A stretch of 64,000 nt of DNA from Escherichia coli. Its GTDB lineage: Bacteria > Pseudomonadota > Gammaproteobacteria > Enterobacterales > Enterobacteriaceae. The notes below the pieces were generated by a model. That model ran no database searches and had not been told where the DNA came from. It worked only from the letters and a program-made list of their open reading frames with translations. The translations under genes were made by a program, and so were the position numbers. Below, one piece after another: positions 7,546 to 17,133 of the stretch (its first letter is position 1; each line of letters starts with the position of its first letter). Location: NCBI RefSeq assembly GCF_003019035.1, contig NZ_CP027447.1. One strand, 5' to 3'.

Positions 7546-7759
7546 ACCTGCACTCCAATTATTGACCCGCTCCTCACCGCGCCTCCCTCTCCGGCGGCGC
7601 GAATGCACATCTTATTGGCTATCACATCCGACACAAATGTTGCCATCCCATTGCTTAATCGAATAAAAATCAGGCTACATGGGTGCTAAATCTTTAACGA
7701 TAACGCCATTGAGGCTGGTCATGGCACTCATGAATCTGGTATACTTACCGTTACACATT

Positions 7760-8122
7760 GGGGCTGATTCTGGATTCGACGGGATTTGCGAAACCCAAGG
7801 TGCATGCCGAGGGGCGGTTGGCCTCGTAAAAAGCCGCAAAAAATAGTCGCAAACGACGAAAACTACGCTTTAGCAGCTTAATAACCTGCTTAGAGCCCTC
7901 TCTCCCTAGCCTCCGCTCTTAGGACGGGGATCAAGAGAGGTCAAACCCAAAAGAGATCGCGTGGAAGCCCTGCCTGGGGTTGAAGCGTTAAAACTTAATC
8001 AGGCTAGTTTGTTAGTGGCGTGTCCGTCCGCAGCTGGCAAGCGAATGTAAAGACTGACTAAGCATGTAGTACCGAGGATGTAGGAATTTCGGACGCGGGT
8101 TCAACTCCCGCCAGCTCCACCA
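7760..8122 (+). ncRNA. ssrA: tmRNA (SsrA, 10Sa RNA)
   Basis: 363 nt from GGGGCTGATTCTGGATTCGACGGG to GGTTCAACTCCCGCCAGCTCCACCA; contains the tag-peptide ORF region (GCAAACGACGAAAACTACGCTTTAGCAGCTTAA) and a tRNA-like 3' end. Confidence 0.95.
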
Positions 8123-8158
8123 CTTTTTAGTAAAATGACGTCTACTAAAGTCTACTAA

Positions 8159-8190
8159 GGCCGCATACCACAAGGGTTTGCGGCCTTTTT
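8159..8190 (+). terminator. rho-independent terminator downstream of ssrA
   Basis: Hairpin GGCCGCA-taccacaagggtt-TGCGGCC followed by TTTTT. Confidence 0.6.
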
Positions 8191-8289
8191 CATGTCCAGT
8201 GAAGTCTACTGAGAATTGCTAGAAACCACTCCTTATGGCACCCTCCTATTATCCCTCGTCGATGAGGGAGTAAAAACGAGGGAGCAAAA

Positions 8290-9522
8290 ATGCCAAAGGT
8301 AGCAACAAAACTCACTGACACAGAGATCAAAAAGGCCAAGCCCACAGAGAAAGAGTTCACGCTATGGGATGGAGATGGCTTGTTCCTGCGCATCAAACCA
8401 AGTGGCAAAAAAATCTGGCACCTCGGCTATACCGTTCCATTAACCAAGAAACGGGCCAAAATGAGTCTTGGGTTCTATCCCTACCTGACACTTGCTCAAG
8501 CAAGAGCGCTACGGGATGAATACCTCTCTTTGCTTGCACAGGGTATCGATCCCCAATCCCACAATGAGCAAAAAGCCCAAGCGCTTAAAGATGCCACTGA
8601 ACACACATTCCAGACTGTAGCGAAAAAATGGCTTGATGAAAAAATTAAAACATCAGGCATATCGCAAGATCATGCTAAGGATATCTGGCGTAGCCTTGAA
8701 CGGAACATCTTTCCTACTTTAGGGGATGTTCCCATTAAAGAGATCCGCCCTAAAATGTTAAAACAACACCTTGACCCCATAGAACAAAGGGGCGTACTCG
8801 AAACCTTGCGACGTATAATTTCCCGACTTAATGAAATTTTCCGCTATGCCGCGACAGAAGAACTCATTGAGTTCAACCCCGCTGACAACCTTATCCAACG
8901 TTTTAGTAAACCCAAAAAGCAAAATATGCCTGCGTTGCCGCCAGATGAACTACCCCGTTTCATGACAGCATTATCAAACGCATCTATACGCTTAGAAACA
9001 CGTCTACTAATTGAATGGCAACTTCTTACTTGGGTTCGTCCCGGTGAAGCTGTACGCGCTCGCTGGACTGACATAGACGAAGAAAGCAAGTATTGGAACA
9101 TTCCATCCGATTTCATGAAGATGAAACGTCCTCATAAGGTTCCATTGAGCAAAGAAGCTATACGTATTCTTGAATCCATGAAACCAATCAGCGGTCATCG
9201 TGAGTGGGTTTTCCCCAGCATAAAAAATCCTTTAACACATATGCACGAGCAAACTGCCAACGCCGCATTAATCCGAATGGGCTTAGGTGGAGAACTCGTA
9301 GCACATGGCATGCGTTCTATTGCAAGAACAGCAGCAGAAGAAGCAGGAAAATTTAGGACAGAAGTTCTTGAAGCGGCTCTCGCCCACTCAAAAAAAGATG
9401 AAATCATTGCTGCTTATAACCGTACAGAATATTTAGTCGAGCGTGTCGAGTTAATGCAATGGTGGAGTGATTATCTCCAAATACAAAAATATAAGTCTTT
9501 AACAACTCTGATCGCCAGCTAA
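8290..9522 (+). CDS. P4-family tyrosine integrase (IntA-like, but not the CP4-57 IntA sequence)
   Basis: 410 aa; N-terminal LTDTEIKKAKP...LWDGDGLFLRIKPSGKK arm-binding-type domain typical of P4-like integrases; C-terminal AHGMRSIARTAAEE...LAHS catalytic region; sits immediately 3' of ssrA. Confidence 0.85.
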   Translation: MPKVATKLTDTEIKKAKPTEKEFTLWDGDGLFLRIKPSGKKIWHLGYTVPLTKKRAKMSLGFYPYLTLAQARALRDEYLSLLAQGIDPQSHNEQKAQALKDATEHTFQTVAKKWLDEKIKTSGISQDHAKDIWRSLERNIFPTLGDVPIKEIRPKMLKQHLDPIEQRGVLETLRRIISRLNEIFRYAATEELIEFNPADNLIQRFSKPKKQNMPALPPDELPRFMTALSNASIRLETRLLIEWQLLTWVRPGEAVRARWTDIDEESKYWNIPSDFMKMKRPHKVPLSKEAIRILESMKPISGHREWVFPSIKNPLTHMHEQTANAALIRMGLGGELVAHGMRSIARTAAEEAGKFRTEVLEAALAHSKKDEIIAAYNRTEYLVERVELMQWWSDYLQIQKYKSLTTLIAS

Positions 9523-9679
9523 TCCTACAATCAACCCAATATCAGAAGCTGGCTTTAGTAGGGATACTTCCATTTTTCTGATATTGTATTACCATGTAGC
9601 TGAAAGTCAGATACCAAGTAGAAAAACACATTTTTATGTATGCTTTATCGAATAAAACATTAACCAAATAGGGGGACTA

Positions 9680-10399
9680 ATGGAAGATTTAGTTTGTAGT
9701 TGGTCACCAAAGCTGATCGTTGATCTTATAAAAAGTATCGCTTGGCCAGTAGTCGTCCTTCTCATCGGCTTCAGTTTTCGAACTCGAATTTTTGAAGTGG
9801 CACGTTCATTTTTTTCTAAAAACACAGTTTCAGAAATATCAGCTACAGTATCAGGTGTATCGGCAAAATTTGTGACAGCAAAGCAAACAACTGAAGTATT
9901 AGAAAGTGCTAGTACCAATGCAGCGAATTTACCAAAGAGTATGAGTATTGAGGCTATAAGAGCGCGACATGAACAGCATAAAACAGAATTCAGCGAAGAG
10001 TTATATCAATCAATAATTAAACATGCTTCCTCTTTAGATATTAATAATGATGAAAAAGTCAAAATTCTGGCACGTGAATTGTCTATTTATCAAGCTATAA
10101 TACGATATATTGACATTAATAAGATATTATTTCGCTCACAATACAATTTATTTTGTTCTATAAATAGTAATGGTGGTCAAATAAATAAAGAAGACGCCAA
10201 TCTTTTTTTTGAGGCGACCAAGAACAACAATAAAGAAGCATTCTCCGATTGGGATTGGATTAAATATATTGCCTATCCTGTTAGTAATAGCCTTATCTAT
10301 GAAGATAATAATTTTTATAAACTTACAGAGTTGGGAAGATCGTATATAGCTTTTATGTCAAAAAATCCACAACTAATCGACGAACTTGCAAAATTATAG
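9680..10399 (+). CDS. hypothetical membrane-anchored protein (island cargo)
   Basis: 239-aa ORF, AT-rich codon usage, one N-terminal hydrophobic segment (IAWPVVVLLIGFSF); no recognisable family motif. Confidence 0.5.
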   Translation: MEDLVCSWSPKLIVDLIKSIAWPVVVLLIGFSFRTRIFEVARSFFSKNTVSEISATVSGVSAKFVTAKQTTEVLESASTNAANLPKSMSIEAIRARHEQHKTEFSEELYQSIIKHASSLDINNDEKVKILARELSIYQAIIRYIDINKILFRSQYNLFCSINSNGGQINKEDANLFFEATKNNNKEAFSDWDWIKYIAYPVSNSLIYEDNNFYKLTELGRSYIAFMSKNPQLIDELAKL

Positions 10400-10629
10400 T
10401 AGGGAATAATATTAAACCCTACTCAATGACTGTTTCAGATCTTGGTTCTGTATCCCATAAATGATCAGGTAAAGTCTAAGCGAATAGCGTTTAACAGGTG
10501 GGATGACTCACTACGTGAACCACCCACCTATAAAAAGGGTTTTTCTTCTGGTGAGTTGTCAATAAAAATGAAGGTTTCCACCTTTCATGCGGACCCTCCT
10601 TAATTTTTTTTGACAAGTTGAGATCGAGA

Positions 10630-11082
10630 CTATTTATCATTACGTTTTTTCATAAAATATTTATAACGTTCATCAGCTTCTTTTTGAAACTTTTCAGCGT
10701 CAAACGTATCAGTTTCTATTTTTATTTTTTGTTTTACCGCTTCATCTAATCTTTTATTTTCTTTCAATCTTTCTTTTTCTACTAATATAAGTTTATAGTA
10801 TTTTAGCTTAATATTAAAACTTGCTTTTGCTAACTCCTTAGCGTCAAAACCTATATTGTATTTTTTAAGAAGTTTCAATATATAATCTATAGTCATTTTT
10901 TTCACTTCCTTTTTTATTTTTTCTTCATGCGCATCTTTTTTTATACTCCCACTTTTTAACCATTGCTTAAATTTATAGCCATTATAATGCTGCCATTGAT
11001 ATATTTCAGCGGCATACATCACCGACAACATACAAACAATAAAAAATACAACCATAAAAACCACACATATTAAATAATACAT
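10630..11082 (-). CDS. hypothetical membrane-anchored Lys-rich coiled-coil protein (last gene of operon)
   Basis: 150 aa; N-terminal TM helix (YYLICVVFMVVFFIVCMLSVMY) followed by a charged helical region; 1-nt gap to the upstream ORF. Confidence 0.5.
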   Translation of the reverse strand: MYYLICVVFMVVFFIVCMLSVMYAAEIYQWQHYNGYKFKQWLKSGSIKKDAHEEKIKKEVKKMTIDYILKLLKKYNIGFDAKELAKASFNIKLKYYKLILVEKERLKENKRLDEAVKQKIKIETDTFDAEKFQKEADERYKYFMKKRNDK

Positions 11083-11083
11083 A

Positions 11084-11320
11084 TCAGCCCCCGCCTTTCC
11101 TTCTATATTGTTCTTTTATTAATGCTACGTGATATTTTTTTGCGTTGCTTATACTTACATCAGCAGAGTTTCTAGCAGAAGCAAAAGCACTTGAAACAAC
11201 AGAAGCAATAATGGCAACTAAGAAAGCAGCAACAAAAAAACCCATCACTGGCCCCATAAAACTAGCCCCACCGTCATCTATTGCTGGTTTTGCTTTTGCT
11301 AATAATGATAATAGGCTCAT
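11084..11320 (-). CDS. hypothetical small membrane protein
   Basis: 78 aa; central hydrophobic segment PVMGFFVAAFLVAIIASVVSSAF; basic Gly-rich C-terminus. Confidence 0.5.
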   Translation of the reverse strand: MSLLSLLAKAKPAIDDGGASFMGPVMGFFVAAFLVAIIASVVSSAFASARNSADVSISNAKKYHVALIKEQYRRKGGG

Positions 11321-11730
11321 ATATTTCTCTCTTCTTCAATGTTTTTAATCGCTGTTTCTATTCTTTGTTTTACAAAGTCTCTAAACACATAACCTATTAT
11401 TCGCGCGTCTTCACATATATCTAACTCATCTTTTTTATGAAAATATAAATCAGCGCTTAAAAGCTCTTCGCTTTGAATATTTAACATTTTACTAGCAAGT
11501 GATATTCTAATAATATTTCGCACTTCTAAATCCAAGCTTGCTCTATCATGCTTATTCAAAAGCTGGAGCGGATGAAAATCTTTTTTTCTTTTCATTTCTT
11601 GCATATCATTATCAAAATCTATCATTAAAAAATGTAAGCAAGTAAAAGACGTATCATAGAAGTTTAAGCGGTTCATCATATCCGCCGTTCCCTCTTTTCG
11701 AGGGTTCGGGTTAGGTCTTAATTTATTCAT
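11317..11730 (-). CDS. hypothetical protein
   Basis: 137 aa; no recognisable motif; 4-nt overlap with the downstream ORF. Confidence 0.5.
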   Translation of the reverse strand: MNKLRPNPNPRKEGTADMMNRLNFYDTSFTCLHFLMIDFDNDMQEMKRKKDFHPLQLLNKHDRASLDLEVRNIIRISLASKMLNIQSEELLSADLYFHKKDELDICEDARIIGYVFRDFVKQRIETAIKNIEEERNI

Positions 11731-12064
11731 CTGCTTTACTCCTTTTCTTGTTGTTTTTTAGCTTCCATTCATTCAATCTTTTATCGCCTTCAACTTTTAA
11801 GAACTCACGCTGATCGTGTATTCTTTTCAGTATTAGATTATTAGTTAACGCTCCTACTAACAAAGAAATATCATTCGCAAAATCTAATGTCTCGATGTTA
11901 TTTTCTCTAACTATTCTTATTAGTTCAGCGCCGGCTTTTATTTTACGTGTCGTATCTTTTTTCCTTTCTTCTGCCTTCATTTCTTGCTCCATTCTATTCA
12001 ATAAGTTTGCTCTTTGCTCAATTTCTTTTTTTAATTTATTATATTTTTCTATATTAAACGCCAT
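11723..12064 (-). CDS. hypothetical coiled-coil, Lys/Glu-rich protein
   Basis: 113 aa; highly charged helical sequence; overlaps neighbours (12064/12054, 11730/11723). Confidence 0.5.
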   Translation of the reverse strand: MAFNIEKYNKLKKEIEQRANLLNRMEQEMKAEERKKDTTRKIKAGAELIRIVRENNIETLDFANDISLLVGALTNNLILKRIHDQREFLKVEGDKRLNEWKLKNNKKRSKADE

Positions 12065-12383
12065 TTTCTGAACCTCTCTTTTCTTTTATCGTAATAAAAA
12101 AGGCAATCAACCCACTGATCAATAAAATTGGTAAAGTTAAAATAAACCCTACCAATAACACTAATGAAAATCCGAGCACGCCGGACATCTCATATAGATT
12201 TCCGAACAATGTGCTTTCGTTTTTATACTCAACCATATTCTGTAAAACAGACCTTTTTTCAATATCTTTTTCTTTTAAAGAATCTTCTCTATATTCATAA
12301 TCTTCACAACTCAAAGAAATTTCCACAGTGTTATCATTCAAATACTCATTATCATAATAGTCGTAATCATTATTCCCAATCAT
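12054..12383 (-). CDS. hypothetical membrane protein with acidic Tyr/Asp-rich N-terminus and C-terminal TM segment
   Basis: 109 aa; hydrophobic stretch GVLGFSLVLLVGFILTLPILLISGLIAFFI; overlapping stop/start with both neighbours. Confidence 0.5.
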   Translation of the reverse strand: MIGNNDYDYYDNEYLNDNTVEISLSCEDYEYREDSLKEKDIEKRSVLQNMVEYKNESTLFGNLYEMSGVLGFSLVLLVGFILTLPILLISGLIAFFITIKEKRGSENGV

Positions 12384-12565
12384 TCTAGATCTCCTTCTAA
12401 CGTGTCATAAACAACAGTAAAATCATTCTCATGAGAAAGAAGATTGTAAGTTATAAATAAGCTTGTCCTATAAACAATATCTGTATTTTCATCCTGTAGT
12501 TTTTGAATAATCAACTTAACAAGATCAGACGCTGCCACTTCAATTTTTTTATCAATATCATTCAT
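12380..12565 (-). CDS. hypothetical small protein (first gene of six-gene island operon)
   Basis: 61-aa ORF; stop overlaps the start of the next ORF (12383/12380); divergent from mobA. Confidence 0.45.
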   Translation of the reverse strand: MNDIDKKIEVAASDLVKLIIQKLQDENTDIVYRTSLFITYNLLSHENDFTVVYDTLEGDLE

Positions 12566-12729
12566 GTTCCACCTCTTTTATTTTTTATGATTTCTGTTAT
12601 ATATATTAAGTAATATAATTATTTATTTAAGTAAAGCGCGATATATATTTTTTTGTTTTTAGAACGCATTTTTCAGATAAAAGGCTCACGTGCGGCGGCT
12701 ATTTTAGTTTTGCTAAAAACTACAATAGC

Positions 12730-12762
12730 GCACTTATACATTCTTCGAATGTGTGCGCCCCA
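12730..12762 (+). other. candidate MobQ-type origin of transfer (inverted repeat plus nick-site-like GTGCGCCC)
   Basis: ACATTC-ttcg-GAATGT inverted repeat immediately followed by GTGCGCCC, resembling the RSF1010 oriT arrangement (inverted repeat then TAAGTGCG/CCCT nick region); about 140 bp upstream of mobA. Confidence 0.45.
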
Positions 12763-12901
12763 TAAATGGGGGTTTACTAACGCAGAAAAATAAAAAGTAA
12801 TATTCGCTTTATGCTCAATATTACTTAATCGCTTTTCAAAAAAGCAAATATATTTTTATTATTTTAAAAAGTATGTGTTTCAATATCAGGAGATAAAAAC
12901 A

Positions 12902-14203
12902 ATGGCAATATTTCATATGAGCGCTCAAACAATAACACGCAGCAAGGGGTATAGTAGCGTAGCTGCGGCAGCTTATCGCCACGGCGAAAAGTTAACGGAC
13001 GAACACACAGGAGAGATCCACGACTACAGCAAAAAGAAAGGTGTTTCAGACAGTGTTATATTAATACCTGAAAGCGCAGACCGTAATTTTTTAAAGCCTG
13101 CGTATTTATGGAACATGATAGAAAAAAGCGAAAAAAGAAAAGATGCGCAGTTAGCTCGCGAGTTTAATATTGCGCTTCCTGTCGAAATGACAGATGAACA
13201 AAAAAAGGCGTTAGCAATAGATTTTTGCCAAGAGCATTTTGTAAAAAATGGAATGATTGCTGATATAGCTTTTCACAAGCTCGATAGCGACAACCCACAT
13301 TTTCATGTAATGCTAACCACCCGCAGCCTTACGCCGGACGGTTCAGAGTTCGGACATAAAGTCAGGGAATGGAACAACAAAGAGCAGCTCGAAGGCTGGC
13401 GCAAGAGCTGGGCTGACACAGCGAACGAGCACATGCAAAAGGCTGGCATCGATGCGCATATAGATCACAGATCACTGAAAGAACAAAAAGCAGAGCTTGA
13501 CGCTATCCTCCCCCCTCTCAGAACGATTGAGCAAGAGGCGCAGGCTATCAGCTTAGACAGACCGCCGACTATCCATAGAGGCCATAGCCGCAATCCAGAG
13601 CGACAAGCACGCTTTGACGTGCTCCAAGAAGTGAAAGTATCACAAGAGGAAAAAGCACTTAACCACATTGAACAGAAACAACTTAAGCCCTCGCCGCTGG
13701 CTCCAGCTTCCTCCCCTGCCGCATCTTTGCAAGATGCTACACAAGGAGGCAATGAAAACAACCCGCAAAATAGACTCGGCGAAGTTGGCGAATATCTTCA
13801 ATCTAAACTCAATAAAGAAGATAAAGCAGATCTTAATACTGATAATGAAATCAAAGTTCACACTACTAAAAATAATAGGGAAAGCAGTTCAGCAGCAGCT
13901 ATAGGTTCAACATCAAATATTAATTTAACCGATGAGAAAACAGATAAGAATCTACACTTAACAGAAGCACAAAAAGAAGAGTTAGAGGATTTAGAAAATA
14001 AAGAAGCAGCAGCGAAGAAAAAAGCTTATCTGATGAGCGGAGCTGCCGTTCCTGAACTTTCTCAAGATTACAAAACACTGTCAAAAAGTGAGTTTAAAAA
14101 TAAGCTTCATACAGCTAAACAATCAATATCATTAACTGAAAAGAGATTTAATGAAGAATGTGAAGCATATGATAACAGAAGAAAACGACCAATACCGCGC
14201 TAA
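12902..14203 (+). CDS. mobA: MobA/MobL-family (MobQ-type) conjugative relaxase
   Basis: N-terminus MAIFHMSAQTITRSKGYSSVAAAAYRHGEKL is the characteristic MobA/MobL signature; HFHVML histidine motif present; Ser/Glu/Lys-rich low-complexity C-terminus; AGGAG RBS 8 nt upstream of ATG 12902. Confidence 0.8.
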   Translation: MAIFHMSAQTITRSKGYSSVAAAAYRHGEKLTDEHTGEIHDYSKKKGVSDSVILIPESADRNFLKPAYLWNMIEKSEKRKDAQLAREFNIALPVEMTDEQKKALAIDFCQEHFVKNGMIADIAFHKLDSDNPHFHVMLTTRSLTPDGSEFGHKVREWNNKEQLEGWRKSWADTANEHMQKAGIDAHIDHRSLKEQKAELDAILPPLRTIEQEAQAISLDRPPTIHRGHSRNPERQARFDVLQEVKVSQEEKALNHIEQKQLKPSPLAPASSPAASLQDATQGGNENNPQNRLGEVGEYLQSKLNKEDKADLNTDNEIKVHTTKNNRESSSAAAIGSTSNINLTDEKTDKNLHLTEAQKEELEDLENKEAAAKKKAYLMSGAAVPELSQDYKTLSKSEFKNKLHTAKQSISLTEKRFNEECEAYDNRRKRPIPR

Positions 14204-14563
14204 GTATTTTGCTCATTTTTTATCCCCAATGAATGACTTAGCGTTATATTTACTTTAACTAATTGATACTATTGATTTATTTTCACCTCACGTCGTATCG
14301 TTTATATCGATCAAAATCGACAAAGTGATAGTTAACACCTATCACAACCAATTCATCGATCGATTAAAACAATTAATACACCGATCGATAAACGAGATTT
14401 AATCGTTAAAAACTATCAATATTAAATAATTGATCTGTTATAACGATCATTTTGCTTGAGAGTAGCCCTCCTCATGGTATGCTCGGAGCGTGGAAGACCG
14501 GGCTACTCACCTTGATATCTTCTTGATTAAGCAAAACTATCGCTCTATGAGGAATGAAATTTT

Positions 14564-15058
14564 ATGAAAACCGAAAACATTATTTTTCTTGTTTGGGCAG
14601 TGATTTTTATCCTGATTCTCTGCCAACTTTTTTATTTTGGCCCTAAAAAAAGAAGATACCTCAATACTTATATAGAGGTATTAGATGGTGATGTCCTCTC
14701 ATATGAATGTCAAAATACCGGCGTAGTTATTGATACTAAAAAAAACACAGTACGTATTTTCAATACATATAAGGACAGCACTTTCAAATACGACAACATC
14801 AGGGAAATAAATTATACGCTATCCGAAGCCGGAAAAATTTATAGCACAAGTAATAATCTAAACTCTATGATAAAGTCCGCTGGAGCTAACAGTAATGAAC
14901 AAATGTTAGCTAATCAGCGTTCCGGTATTTTTATACTGACAGATGATATAAAAAATCCTTCATGGAAAATCAATCTACCAATGAAAAACAAAACATCATC
15001 TACCAATCAGGAGATCTGCGATCGATGGCTTCTCATTTTTAAAAAATACGTTTTATAA
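14564..15058 (+). CDS. hypothetical membrane-anchored protein
   Basis: 164 aa; N-terminal hydrophobic helix IIFLVWAVIFILILCQLFYF; AT-rich; no recognisable motif. Confidence 0.5.
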   Translation: MKTENIIFLVWAVIFILILCQLFYFGPKKRRYLNTYIEVLDGDVLSYECQNTGVVIDTKKNTVRIFNTYKDSTFKYDNIREINYTLSEAGKIYSTSNNLNSMIKSAGANSNEQMLANQRSGIFILTDDIKNPSWKINLPMKNKTSSTNQEICDRWLLIFKKYVL

Positions 15059-15090
15059 CTTTGTTTTTTATTTTTATCTTTGGAGTTGAC

Positions 15091-15468
15091 ATGAAAAAAT
15101 TGATTGCGGCAGCATTTATTATTCTCCCTTTAGCAAGTTGTACTGTTTATGGAAACAAATCCATTAAAGACGAAACGCAGCAAAATATAGCCTCTAAAAT
15201 TATAAAAGGTAAAACTACTCAAAAAGATATCCTTCAACTTTATGGAGAACCTCAGACTAAAGAAACTAACGATGGTAAAGAAATGTGGGGATATTCCGTT
15301 ATGTCCGGTGAATCTCAGATTTCAAATTACATACCGGGATTAGCGTTATTGAAGAATAGCAGCACAGCGCACATGAAAGAACTTGAGATCTTGTTTAAAG
15401 GTGATGTAGTTGAACGCTATACCTTTAGACAAACGGCAAGCAAAGCTTCTCGCGGGTTGTTAGATTAA
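15091..15468 (+). CDS. putative lipoprotein
   Basis: Start chosen at ATG 15091 (GGAG RBS upstream); signal peptide MKKLIAAAFIILPLASC with lipobox L-A-S-C; 125 aa. Confidence 0.55.
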   Translation: MKKLIAAAFIILPLASCTVYGNKSIKDETQQNIASKIIKGKTTQKDILQLYGEPQTKETNDGKEMWGYSVMSGESQISNYIPGLALLKNSSTAHMKELEILFKGDVVERYTFRQTASKASRGLLD

Positions 15469-16469
15469 TTTAAATTAAATACCATTTTATCTTTAAAAAG
15501 AAGTTGGAATAGTCCGACTTCTTTTCTATTTTATCAATAACATGCATTATTTATATTAGTGCCTTATGAAATGGCACCTTACTTTTTATATTTCCCTATC
15601 TGGGGGTTTAACCTTTGTTTTTTATTAAAAAAAATTTTGTACTAGTAGTACTAATTAATTAATTTAAAAATTTTTGGTTTTAAGGTTTTGGGGTTTGTGT
15701 TTTAGCGGGGCGGCTTTCAGCCGTAGTAGTTTTCCTCCGAAGGAGGAAATAGTTTTTCTTTAAGCATTCCCCCCCTACCCCCCACGCCAAAAAGGCTAAA
15801 AAAGAGAGATAGGAGATGCTCATTGCGTCTTGAAAATATTCAGAACGTTTCCATTCTGATACTTCCCCCACGACCCACGCAAACACAAATCATGAAACTT
15901 TCAAACAACTCTCGTTTTACTAAAGAGTCTATGCTACTGTTTGTAAATTTTTTAGATTGTGCGATTCAGGTTGGCAGCTACGCATATCCCGGTTAACCGC
16001 TGCCGCAATATTCTAAGTTTCACCAAACACTCGATGTCCTTCGTACTTAGACCTTGATACAACAAGGGTAATATTATATTGCTTTTGTAGATTAAATGTT
16101 TCTGGAAATGGTATTGACATTTTATCTATGTCAAAGTCGGCGAAATTTGTTTAATCATGCAGATTAGAGGCTTCTGGAAGTGGTATTTAATATTAGTTAA
16201 AAGTCGACGAAGCATTTCTAATCTTTTGTATCTTTATATTATATAAATCTATATATAACACCAGTCAATAGATGAAATCAAAAATATTTTAAAAACATGA
16301 CTAGATGAAAAACAAAAAAAGACCAGATTAAACCCCAGTCTCTTTTTTACTTAATATCAGTTATGTTTTTCATATATAGTTCTAAAACGCTCTGTACGCG
16401 ATTTTGAGACGTTTTACACTGGAAGCGGCGTAATCATATAAATAATAAAATAGAATACTGTAATGATTT

Positions 16470-16685
16470 TTATGCCGCTTGATTACGCGAATAAAAAATC
16501 TTATCATCAATCCATTCGTCAACTTCACTTTCAACAAATGCGATAGTTCTTTCACCAGTCTTGATCGGAGAAGGGAAATCACCCCGGCTAATCAGCCGAT
16601 AGATCCACGCTTTACAAAAACCAGTCTTGTTTAACACTTCGGGTATGCGGATAAGTCTTTTTCTTTCGTTCATATATTTCCTCAT
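16470..16685 (-). CDS. AlpA-family phage-type transcriptional regulator / excisionase-like DNA-binding protein
   Basis: 71-aa ORF; RIPEVLNKTGFCKAWIYRLISRGDFPSP resembles the AlpA/Xis helix-turn-helix region. Confidence 0.7.
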   Translation of the reverse strand: MRKYMNERKRLIRIPEVLNKTGFCKAWIYRLISRGDFPSPIKTGERTIAFVESEVDEWIDDKIFYSRNQAA

Positions 16686-17133
16686 AGTTGTTTTGATGAG
16701 GCTATTATTCGAATATCGCTTATGACGATCAACAACTTTTTTAGCAAAAAGTGCTTTTTTAGTTGACTATTTTAAATTAACAGTCATTTAATCACCTTTG
16801 GAAGTTGAACTCATGAGTTCAACTCCTCACCGCTAGTCATGACATTCAAAATGTGCTTATTTTTTAGCCACAATACTTTTTTTATCCCTTTATTGCACCT
16901 CAATGTAAAATACAAATAATTAATATATTTAATAATCAAATGATTAAAGAGTCGATTACAGGGACGCCAGCCAATCATGATTGGACGGTGTAAGGACAAC
17001 ACTAATAAAAACAGGAAGTTAGCAGTCTCAGCAGGACACCGACCAGACGGTGAGGAGACATAAAAGGATACGCAAAGGAGCCGCGGCCCCTGGTGATATG
17101 AAAGCCCACAGATGTGGGCTTTTTCGTTGATGG

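What the first reader, a model, noticed from the sequence alone, without database searches (positions are those of the whole stretch)
8141..8212. Three copies of TCTACT(A/G)A flanking the ssrA terminator hairpin upstream of the integrase gene
TCTACTAA (8141-8148), TCTACTAA (8151-8158) and TCTACTGA (8204-8211) lie between the tmRNA 3' end and the integrase start, on either side of the terminator hairpin. Short direct repeats here are candidates for integrase arm-type binding sites of the attL region.
Basis: inference. Interest (0 to 1): 0.3.

Follow-up and report, generated by a model that had tools for sequence, protein, structure and literature searches.

The report
Excisionase-type repeats beside ssrA integrase
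The short repeats between the tmRNA gene and the integrase gene are real, conserved parts of a mobile element's attachment site, but they look like docking sites for its excision helper protein, while a different repeat set next to the integrase start fits the integrase arm sites; this is an ordinary, known layout.

Summary
A degenerate fourth copy, GTCCAGTGA, lies at 8194-8202. They form two tandem pairs at a 10-bp period on either side of the ssrA terminator hairpin.

The window is E. coli chromosome. An ~8.8-kb integrative mobilizable element (P4-family Int, MobQ relaxase, AlpA-family regulator) sits in the 3' end of ssrA, so the repeats lie in the element's int-proximal (P') att arm.

The array is conserved at the same positions, with an invariant GTnnA core, in 27 distinct homologous arms from many Enterobacterales genera. 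CP4-57 and phage P4 carry GTCC/ATCC equivalents.

It fails the tests for integrase arm-type sites:
- It is absent from seven P arms.
- It does not track the Int N-terminal arm-binding domain.

A second set (8237-8284, plus 16882-16901 near attR) passes both tests. It also coincides in position with the arm repeats annotated in P4 and with the P' sites of KplE1.

The best reading is an AlpA-type recombination-directionality-factor array. This is inferred, not shown. The layout is ordinary and known.

The parts
7760..8122 (+). ssrA (tmRNA gene). Its last ~14 nt (8109-8122, CGCCAGCTCCACCA) are the att core of attL.
   Evidence: ARAGORN; RefSeq annotation of the identical locus. The K-12 CP4-57 feature starts 15 nt before the ssrA end. 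Internal junctions of tandem arrays end in GCCAGCCCACCA.
8140..8148 (+). Set 1 site a, GTCTACTAA (block 1).
   Evidence: G and T of the site and the A four bases on are invariant in 27 homologous arms.
8150..8158 (+). Set 1 site b, GTCTACTAA (block 1, 10 bp after site a). Its last bases form the base of the terminator stem.
8157..8190 (+). Intrinsic terminator-like hairpin (stem 8157-8165/8179-8187, inner stem 8167-8169/8175-8177) plus T5 at 8186-8190. It is carried by the element and serves ssrA.
   Evidence: RNA fold -24 kcal/mol, z -3.7. Covariation: 93.8% paired, against at most 58% when slid, with 3 pairs changed on both sides. The strict consensus terminator scan missed it because of an internal mismatch.
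8194..8202 (+). Set 1 site c, GTCCAGTGA (degenerate copy, block 2).
   Evidence: 80% match of the 20-nt tandem unit. GT and A are invariant at these columns in the alignment.
8204..8212 (+). Set 1 site d, GTCTACTGA (block 2, 10 bp after site c).
8216..8221 (+). TTGCTA. TTGCT is invariant in the family and directly follows site d. It is a possible -35-like element, but no consensus -10 lies at the proper spacing.
   Evidence: Alignment invariants T105-T109. No promoter called between the hairpin and int. In KplE1 the last TorI site abuts the -35 TTGACA.
8237..8258 (+). Set 2 sites P'1 (GGCACCCTCC, 8237-8246) and P'2 (TTATCCCTCG, 8249-8258): direct, 12-bp spacing. Candidate Int arm-type sites.
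   Evidence: P'1 starts 115 bp from the core; the P4 annotated arm repeats start 113 bp from the P4 core.
8264..8284 (-). Set 2 sites P'3 and P'4: GAGGGAG at 8264-8270 and 8278-8284, which are inverted copies of CTCCCTC. They reach the int Shine-Dalgarno region and ATG.
   Evidence: D2, I2, I3. They change in concert with P'2 between element types.
8290..9522 (+). int: 410-aa P4-family tyrosine integrase (Arm-DNA-bind_3 + Phage_int_M + Phage_integrase).
   Evidence: 29% identical over its full length to KplE1 IntS, which has the same three domains.
16470..16685 (-). alpA-like gene (Phage_AlpA / HTH_17 winged-helix protein, 67-71 aa). Candidate recombination directionality factor of the element.
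   Evidence: Its HTH is 39% identical to TorI over 28 aa. AlpA is the excisionase of CP4So and induces CP4-57 excision (PMC5148205, PMC10107115).
16882..16901 (+). Set 2-type pair on the P arm: TTATCCCT (16882-16889) and GCACCTC (16895-16901), 12-bp spacing, about 65-80 bp left of the attR core.
   Evidence: 8-mer TTATCCCT shared with 8249. Type-matched pairs lie at the same place in L039, L054, L059, L034, L012, L008 and K-12.
16964..16972 (+). attR core remnant ACGCCAGCC, directly followed by AATCATG. It lacks 4 bp (CACC) relative to GCCAGCCCACCAATCATG of K-12 and other strains.
   Evidence: Homology to other E. coli chromosomes resumes at about 16956.

Best explanation
The TCTACT(A/G)A repeats are a phased array of four sites: a and b before the ssrA terminator hairpin, c and d after it, at a 10-bp period within each pair. 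The array lies in the int-proximal (P') arm of the attachment site of an ssrA-integrating, P4/CP4-57-family mobilizable element.

The array is most likely bound head-to-tail by the element's small AlpA-family winged-helix protein, its recombination directionality factor, and not by the integrase N-terminal domain.

Proposed mechanism (inferred):
- Bound RDF bends the DNA between the core (ssrA 3' end) and the true Int arm-type sites (8237-8284). This lets Int bridge arm and core in the excisive complex with attR.
- Block 2 ends 3 bp before the family-invariant TTGCT. Occupancy there probably also modulates int transcription.
- The hairpin between the two blocks is an element-supplied intrinsic terminator. 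It ends the ssrA transcript and shields int from that strong promoter.

Shown here: the repeats, their phasing, their conservation, their restriction to one arm, their lack of coupling to the Int N-domain, and the existence and properties of the second repeat set.

Inferred: which protein binds the array, and the effects on bending and transcription.
For: 1. The array is real and non-random.

2. It is conserved. In alignment A2 of 27 distinct arms (E. coli, Yersinia, Enterobacter, Kluyvera, Hafnia, Dickeya, Serratia, Photorhabdus and others), G, T and the A four bases on are invariant in all four sites, and the 10-bp and 54-bp offsets are kept. L017 carries GTTC variants in all four sites.

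3. The ~50%-identical IntA clade, including K-12 CP4-57, has GTCC/ATCC sites at a 10-bp period in the same two blocks. So does phage P4.

4. It is confined to one arm. No copy or phased equivalent was found in seven P arms.

5. It does not track the Int arm-binding domain. Spearman rho for Set 1 against the N-domain is 0.41, against 0.81 for Set 2. L015 compared with L019-L022 and L026 has Set 1 92-100% identical, the catalytic part 97-99.7% identical, and the N-domain only 73-76% identical.

6. The arm-type role is already filled by Set 2. Set 2 type predicts N-domain identity: 97.4% against 69.6% among Int pairs whose catalytic parts are at least 95% identical. Type-matched 12-bp-spaced pairs lie on the P arm. 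Set 2 coincides with the annotated P4 'attP arm sequence repeat' features.

7. The mapped KplE1 attL has the same order. It runs: tRNA core; two TorI sites; three TorI sites at a 10-bp period (cores GTTCG/GTCCG/GATCG) abutting the -35 of PintS; IntS arm-type sites up to the ATG (PMC2951348 section 8; sequence). IntS has the same Pfam architecture as the window Int and is 29% identical to it.

8. The element encodes an AlpA-family protein whose HTH resembles that of TorI.

9. AlpA is the excisionase for CP4So and drives CP4-57 excision (PMC5148205; PMC10107115).

10. RDF sites are typically direct repeats one helical turn apart (PMC7498355 abstract).

11. RdfS of ICEMlSymR7A binds attL upstream of an arm-type site and stimulates intS (PMC11963761).

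12. In 496 locus pairs, the post-hairpin Set 1 region correlates best with AlpA identity: rho 0.75, against 0.65 for the N-domain and 0.64 for the catalytic part.
Against: No binding data exist for any CP4-57-family AlpA on att DNA that I could find.

The AlpA correlation is only slightly higher than the others and is confounded by clade structure.

L030 has the same Set 1 as L034, but the only AlpA-like gene within 11 kb is 40% identical to the L034 protein. That gene may belong to another module or element.

Lambda Int arm-type sites P'1-P'3 are also tandem at about 10 bp (my own knowledge), so phasing alone does not exclude Int.

No consensus sigma-70 promoter was found for int, so the transcriptional part of the model is weak.

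TorI itself scores only weakly for HTH_17 and not for Phage_AlpA.
Confidence: 0.55

Rival explanations
1. One reading: the repeats are arm-type (P') sites bound by the N-terminal Arm-DNA-bind_3 domain of the integrase, perhaps as a second class alongside Set 2.
For: They lie in the att arm next to int. Int has an arm-binding domain. Tandem 10-bp spacing resembles lambda P'1-P'3, and the unit AAGTCTACTAA loosely resembles the lambda arm consensus (my own knowledge, not tested).
Against: They are absent from seven P arms. They do not covary with the N-domain, whereas Set 2 does. They are not positionally equivalent to the annotated P4 arm repeats or the KplE1 P' sites, which Set 2 matches. The repeats stay the same across at least three N-domain/Set 2 types.
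Confidence: 0.15
2. The sequences act at the RNA level or through a host factor. Sites a and b would be part of the 3' trailer of pre-tmRNA, as a processing or terminator context. Alternatively the array binds a host nucleoid protein such as IHF, Fis or H-NS rather than an element protein.
For: Sites a and b are transcribed with ssrA, upstream of the terminator. Site a can pair with the TTTAGTA that follows CCA (8125-8132 with 8143-8150). Site b overlaps the stem base. P4-family att arms are reported to hold IHF sites (PMC7286903).
Against: Sites c and d lie after the terminator yet carry the same motif and phase. The trailer helix shows only weak support: 81.9% paired against 78.1% in shuffles, with little covariation. 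The motif changes between clades (GTCTA, GTCC, GTTCG) while the host factors stay the same.
Confidence: 0.1
3. The repeats have no function of their own. They persist by common descent and by linkage to the terminator and int.
For: Many arms are closely related, and recombination blocks are evident in the region.
Against: The GTnnA core is invariant in four separate sites while flanking and spacer bases vary across 27 arms from many genera. The same two-block, 10-bp-phased layout recurs with different motifs in integrases of about 50% (CP4-57 clade) and 29% (KplE1) identity, and in P4. L017 changes all four sites the same way.
Confidence: 0.1

Closest known systems
KplE1 (CPS-53) attL of E. 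coli K-12: TorI (RDF) and IntS sites upstream of intS (Panis et al. 2010, PMC2951348)
   Same: The order of parts is the same. It runs: 3' end of a small-RNA gene as core; two RDF sites; a second RDF block at a 10-bp period ending at the int promoter region; Int arm-type sites (two direct at 12 bp, then inverted copies) up to the ATG. Int has the same three Pfam domains and is 29% identical. The RDF HTH is similar.
   Different: The target is argW, not ssrA. The RDF site core is GTTCG/GTCCG/GATCG rather than GTCTA/GTCCA. Block 2 has three sites, against two clear ones here. There is no terminator hairpin between the blocks. TorI represses intS, whereas CP4-57 AlpA was reported to raise int expression (as cited in PMC6092414). 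Binding is mapped for KplE1 and only inferred here.
Satellite phage P4 attP (Pierson and Kahn 1987, as annotated in NC_001609)
   Same: Annotated 12-nt arm repeats (TTGGGGGCAT) occur as a direct pair 113-136 bp from the core on the int side, one inverted copy over the int ATG, and a direct pair on the other arm. This is the layout of Set 2 here. Vis, an AlpA homologue, is the P4 excisionase (PMC6092414, PMC7286903).
   Different: The target is leuX. The motifs differ. There is no strong terminator hairpin between the blocks. I could not read the Vis footprint data (Cali et al. 2004).
CP4-57 cryptic prophage of E. coli K-12 (IntA/AlpA) and CP4So of Shewanella
   Same: Same target (ssrA 3' end), same attR lacking one T, same arm layout including the terminator hairpin, an AlpA-family RDF, and a homologous Int.
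   Different: IntA is only about 50% identical. Set 1 is GTCC-type and Set 2 is AGGCCCA-type. alpA lies near int rather than next to attR. The cargo differs: the window element carries a MobQ relaxase.
ICEMlSymR7A attL with RdfS and IntS (PMC11963761)
   Same: A winged-helix RDF binds attL between the core and an arm-type site upstream of int, oligomerises along the DNA, stimulates int transcription and promotes excision.
   Different: A distant element and host. The motif and site number differ. The RDF gene lies in a conjugation operon.

Membership tests
Integrase arm-type sites of P4-family (Arm-DNA-bind_3) integrases | Located in an att arm outside the core, next to an integrase with an arm-binding domain | tested here: met
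   The repeats lie at 8140-8212, between the core (8109-8122) and int (8290). Int has PF13356.
Integrase arm-type sites of P4-family (Arm-DNA-bind_3) integrases | Copies on both arms (P and P') of attP | tested here: not met
   No GTCYAST or phased GTCY/RTCCG sites in the 200 bp left of the attR core in 7 elements. Set 2 does recur there with a matching type.
Integrase arm-type sites of P4-family (Arm-DNA-bind_3) integrases | Sequence follows the specificity of the Int N-terminal domain (covariation) | tested here: not met
   Set 1 against the N-domain gives rho 0.41; Set 2 gives 0.81. L015 and L020 have identical Set 1 but N-domains 75.8% identical.
Integrase arm-type sites of P4-family (Arm-DNA-bind_3) integrases | Positional equivalence with the mapped or annotated arm sites of relatives (P4, KplE1) | tested here: not met
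   P4 arm repeats start 113 bp from the core and reach the ATG, and the KplE1 P' sites lie between the -10 and the ATG. Both correspond to window 8237-8284, not 8140-8212.
Integrase arm-type sites of P4-family (Arm-DNA-bind_3) integrases | Bound by the isolated Int N-terminal domain | not testable with these tools
   Needs EMSA or footprinting.
Recombination directionality factor (Xis/TorI/Vis/AlpA winged-helix) binding array | Direct repeats about one helical turn apart | tested here: met
   Starts at 8140/8150 and 8194/8204. The period is kept in 27 arms, and also in CP4-57-type arms and P4. The rule is stated in PMC7498355.
Recombination directionality factor (Xis/TorI/Vis/AlpA winged-helix) binding array | Confined to one arm, between the core and the Int arm-type sites | tested here: met
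   Same place as the TorI sites in KplE1 attL.
Recombination directionality factor (Xis/TorI/Vis/AlpA winged-helix) binding array | A cognate small winged-helix RDF gene in the element | tested here: met
   PF05930 Phage_AlpA protein at 16470-16685, E = 5e-18. Family members act as excisionases.
Recombination directionality factor (Xis/TorI/Vis/AlpA winged-helix) binding array | Site sequence covaries with the RDF | tested here: inconclusive
   Three AlpA classes go with three Set 1 classes, and rho of 0.75 is the highest of the correlations. But this is confounded by clade structure, and L030 is a possible exception.
Recombination directionality factor (Xis/TorI/Vis/AlpA winged-helix) binding array | Bound and bent by the RDF; required for excision | not testable with these tools
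   Needs EMSA or footprinting and excision assays.
Rho-independent terminator (of ssrA), element-encoded | G+C-rich stem-loop followed by a T-run, maintained by compensatory changes | tested here: met
   Present in every ssrA arm examined.

The most novel reading that the evidence does not exclude
The two RDF-type site blocks deliberately bracket the ssrA terminator. An AlpA oligomer spanning or looping the 44-bp terminator segment would then change termination, read-through or roadblocking of the very strong ssrA transcription into int. This would couple integrase supply to RDF production. No consensus int promoter was found in this clade, which leaves room for such a device.
Probability: 0.06. 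Interest if true: 0.6.

Novelty: new member of a known kind. Interest (0 to 1): 0.3.

Why it matters
The result gives testable site assignments for the large CP4-57/ssrA family of islands, prophage remnants and mobilizable elements in Enterobacterales. I found no mapping of AlpA or Int binding sites for this family. The assignments are:
- Set 1 as the RDF array.
- Set 2 as the Int arm sites on both arms.
- An element-supplied ssrA terminator between the two Set 1 blocks.

It also corrects an easy mis-annotation: the most eye-catching repeats next to int are not necessarily the arm-type sites.

The side observation may be the most useful lead. The Int N-domain and its arm sites are exchanged as a cassette, while the core, Set 1 and the catalytic domain stay the same. 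This suggests how several elements can share one attB, in tandem, without cross-reacting.

Tried and rejected
1. A direct-repeat search for a long ssrA 3' copy found none at 14 nt or more. attR had to be located by comparison with K-12 psaA and other strains.

2. Plain k-mer sharing between the two arms of the window element was uninformative on its own. Only TTATCCCT and TTTTTAGT were shared, at about chance level.

3. The REL606 island was fetched to obtain a second P arm, but it is truncated by IS1.

4. The consensus promoter scan found the ssrA promoter but no int promoter. The strict terminator scan missed the hairpin.

5. I considered P. aeruginosa AlpA, an antiterminator with a GGGACG element between -35 and -10. 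It is a larger, eight-helix protein loaded at a promoter, so it is not a model for a 70-aa AlpA acting 360 nt downstream of PssrA. I kept it only as a remote lead.

6. The RNA helix between the post-CCA TTTAGTA and site a has weak comparative support.

7. The fourth exact copy, inside int (9002-9010), is not conserved at synonymous sites.

8. One-mismatch copies near the alpA and mobQ promoters (16759, 12772) are at chance level and are not conserved in L012.

9. Kirby et al. 1994 (PMC205313) is not held, and Cali et al. 2004 could not be read.

Full report
CONTEXT

The window is E. coli chromosome. Positions 7700-9600 are 100% identical to strain SCU-301. The RefSeq annotation there reads smpB, ssrA, an integrase, hypothetical genes, a MobQ relaxase, an HTH regulator, then ypjA and the right-hand remnant of the CP4-57 region.

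In window coordinates:
- ssrA: 7760-8122.
- int: 8290-9522, 410 aa, with Arm-DNA-bind_3, Phage_int_M and Phage_integrase domains.
- mobQ: 12875-14203.
- A Phage_AlpA-family gene: 16470-16685, minus strand.

Homology to other E. coli chromosomes resumes at about 16956. There an attR-type core remnant, ACGCCAGCC (16964-16972), sits exactly where K-12 has psaA.

The element is therefore an ~8.8-kb integrative mobilizable element in the 3' end of ssrA. The 167 bp between ssrA and int belong to the element: they are the P' arm of its attP. Tandem arrays confirm this, because the same arm follows an internal GCCAGCCCACCA junction rather than ssrA (L008, L034).

THE OBSERVATION

The three copies exist. 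The shared unit has an extra 5' G, and the third copy is 1 nt to the right of the stated position.

GTCTACTRA occurs 4 times in the window against 0.40 expected, and 0 of 100 shuffles reach 4. Three copies lie within 73 bp. The fourth, inside int, is not conserved at synonymous positions and is chance.

The repeat finder shows that the 20-nt tandem unit GTCTACTAAAGTCTACTAAG (8140-8159) is repeated at 80% as GTCCAGTGAAGTCTACTGAG (8194-8213). That gives four sites: a and b, then c and d, each pair at a 10-bp period.

Between the pairs lies a stem-loop plus T5, at -24 kcal/mol and z = -3.7. Across 27 homologous arms it stays paired in 93.8% of cells, with three pairs changed on both sides; slid controls reach at most 58%. 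It is an intrinsic terminator for ssrA carried by the element.

CONSERVATION

Other E. coli ssrA islands keep the same layout. Their int genes are 80-92% identical to the window's at nucleotide level.

A scan of one genome per species returned 79 loci. In 27 distinct arms of the close clade, the G, T and the A four bases on are invariant in all four sites. These arms come from Yersinia, Enterobacter, Kluyvera, Hafnia, Dickeya, Serratia, Photorhabdus and others. The TTGCT that follows site d is also invariant, while spacers vary.

L017 carries GTTC variants at all four sites. In the ~50%-identical IntA clade, which includes K-12 CP4-57, the same two blocks hold GTCC/ATCC sites at a 10-bp period. 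An example is GTCTGTCGTT|GTCCGAGAAC|ATCCGGCTAA|ATCCAGAGAA.

CP4-57 excises when AlpA is over-produced (PMC10107115).

A SECOND REPEAT SET

Closer to int there is another set, here called Set 2:
- Two direct copies 12 bp apart: GGCACCCTCC (8237-8246) and TTATCCCTCG (8249-8258).
- Two inverted copies: GAGGGAG at 8264-8270 and 8278-8284. The last one abuts the ATG.

Across elements, the sites of this set change together, apart from a constant P'1 in the close clade. The types seen are CCCTC, GGACCC, AGTAyCCC, GGTACAC, GGTATAC, AGGCCCA, AGGCACC and GTAACA.

WHICH SET FITS INT ARM-TYPE SITES?

Three tests were applied.

(i) Covariation with the arm-binding domain.
- Among integrase pairs whose catalytic parts are at least 95% identical, pairs with the same Set 2 type have N-domains 97.4% identical (n = 51). 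Pairs with different types have 69.6% (n = 13).
- Within the close clade (325 pairs), Set 2 identity against N-domain identity gives rho 0.81, and against the catalytic part 0.23. For Set 1 the values are 0.41 and 0.35.
- L015 and L020 differ in Set 2 (CCCTC against GGACCC). Their N-domains are 75.8% identical. Their Set 1 is identical, and their catalytic parts are 99.7% identical.
- This is a cassette exchange with one breakpoint between Set 1 and Set 2 and another at the N-domain boundary.
- Linkage could explain co-inheritance of Set 2 with the adjacent N-domain coding region, but not tests (ii) and (iii).

(ii) Presence on both arms.
- A 12-bp-spaced pair of the same type as the element's own Set 2 lies roughly 60-100 bp left of the attR core.
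- Observed types: L039 and L059 GGTACAC; L054 GGTATAC; K-12 and the upstream element of L008 AGG(A/C)CCA; L034 GGACCC/GAACCC; strain 4/1-1 GAACCC.
- In the window the pair is TTATCCCT/GCACCTC at 16882-16901.
- Set 1 motifs are absent from all seven P arms.

(iii) Position in relatives with annotated or mapped sites.
- The P4 record annotates 12-nt 'attP arm sequence repeat' features. There is a direct pair 113-136 bp from the core on the int side, an inverted copy over the int ATG, and a direct pair on the other arm.
- Window P'1 starts 115 bp from the core.
- In KplE1 attL the IntS P' sites share TAAA, and P'1 overlaps the -10 (PMC2951348). My reading of the sequence places them as GG(G/A)TAAAA copies, two direct at 12 bp and two inverted, between the -10 and the ATG.

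Set 2 passes all three tests and Set 1 fails all three.

WHAT SET 1 RESEMBLES

In KplE1 attL the excisionase TorI has five sites in two blocks. One block of two sites lies nearer the core. One block of three sites, at a 10-bp period, has cores GTTCG, GTTCG and GATCG and ends at the -35 of PintS (sequence).

That matches Set 1 in place, block structure and phase.

P4 has RTCC sites at a 10-bp period in the same two places. Its AlpA homologue Vis is the excisionase and represses Pint (PMC6092414; PMC7286903).

The window element encodes an AlpA-family protein. Its helix-turn-helix, TGFCKAWIYRLISRGDFP, resembles TorI's TGFGKTFIYDRIKSGDLP.

Supporting literature:
- AlpA is required for CP4So excision (PMC5148205).
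- RDF sites are typically direct repeats one turn apart (PMC7498355).
- RdfS binds attL upstream of an arm-type site and stimulates intS (PMC11963761).

Across loci with an AlpA gene, three AlpA classes go with three Set 1 classes. The post-hairpin Set 1 region correlates best with AlpA (rho 0.75, against 0.65 and 0.64). The margin is small and clade structure confounds it. L030 is a possible exception.

MECHANISM

Shown:
- The anatomy of the arm.
- Conservation and phasing of Set 1.
- Its restriction to one arm.
- Its lack of coupling to the Int N-domain.
- The terminator.

Inferred:
- AlpA-type RDF molecules bind sites a-d head-to-tail.
- They bend the P' arm so that Int bound at Set 2 can reach the core in the excisive complex.
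- They influence int transcription through block 2. No consensus int promoter was found, so this part is the weakest.

Confidence:
- About 0.85 that Set 1 is a binding array for a protein of the recombination module.
- About 0.55 that the binding protein is the RDF.
- About 0.15 that it is Int.

NOVELTY

The layout is that of P4 and KplE1, so this is a new member of a known kind. I found no mapped Int or AlpA sites for the CP4-57/ssrA family, so the assignments here are predictions, not rediscoveries.

The window copy is probably immobile. Its attR core lacks 4 bp.

Noticed in passing
window 8237-8284 and 16882-16901: A second repeat set (GGCACCCTCC, TTATCCCTCG, then inverted GAGGGAG twice before the int ATG) with a matching 12-bp-spaced pair near attR. 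It behaves as the true Int arm-type set. It may also autoregulate int, since it covers the Shine-Dalgarno region; TCCCTCGT at 8252-8259 can pair with ACGAGGGA at 8276-8283.
   Followed up: yes
Int residues 1-95 with window 8247-8289; loci L015 versus L019-L022 and L026, L069 versus L070, L073 versus L074: The Int N-terminal arm-binding domain and its arm sites are exchanged as a cassette between elements whose core, Set 1 and catalytic domains are nearly identical. At least eight arm-site types share the same ssrA core.

Where both neighbours in a tandem array could be typed, they differ: the element upstream of L008 is AGGCCCA-type and the downstream one GGACCC-type. This hints at arm-site orthogonality among elements that share one attB.
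   Followed up: partly
window 16964-16979: The attR core reads ACGCCAGCC|AATCATG and lacks 4 bp (CACC) relative to GCCAGCCCACCAATCATG in K-12 and GCCAGCCCACCA in other strains. The element is probably locked in place.
   Followed up: partly
window 16803-16837; L034 19537-19566; L012 about 1518-1550: Inside the P arm, about 130-150 bp left of attR, lies a degenerate copy of the ssrA T-arm/3' region (GAGTTCAACTCCTCACCGCTAG against GGGTTCAACTCCCGCCAGCTCC). In the window it is embedded in a perfect palindrome, AGTTGAACTCATGAGTTCAACT. It is conserved in two related elements. Its function is unknown: it may be an old att remnant or an extra binding site.
   Followed up: partly
window 8123-16975: The element is a small integrative mobilizable element: int, about eight small ORFs without family matches, a MobQ/MobA_MobL relaxase (12875-14203), a DUF4755 protein and alpA. 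A close relative with 75%-identical AlpA lies in Enterobacter sp. JUb54 (L034), in tandem with a CP4-57-like element.
   Followed up: partly
attR cores in L003, L008, L012, L034, L039, L054, L059: attR-type cores read GCCAGC-CCACCA, lacking the T of the ssrA GCCAGCTCCACCA. This matches the reported one-T deletion left in ssrA after excision of CP4-57 and CP4So (PMC10107115, PMC5148205).
   Followed up: yes
window 8125-8132 with 8143-8150: The TTTAGTA right after the tmRNA CCA end is an inverted partial copy of site a and could form a helix in the pre-tmRNA 3' trailer. Comparative support is weak.
   Followed up: yes
window 16737-16767 and L034 19250-19290: An inverted repeat, AAAAAGCAC...GTGCTTTTTT, lies about 60-95 bp upstream of alpA, conserved between the window and L034. 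It may be an operator or terminator in the alpA control region.
   Followed up: no
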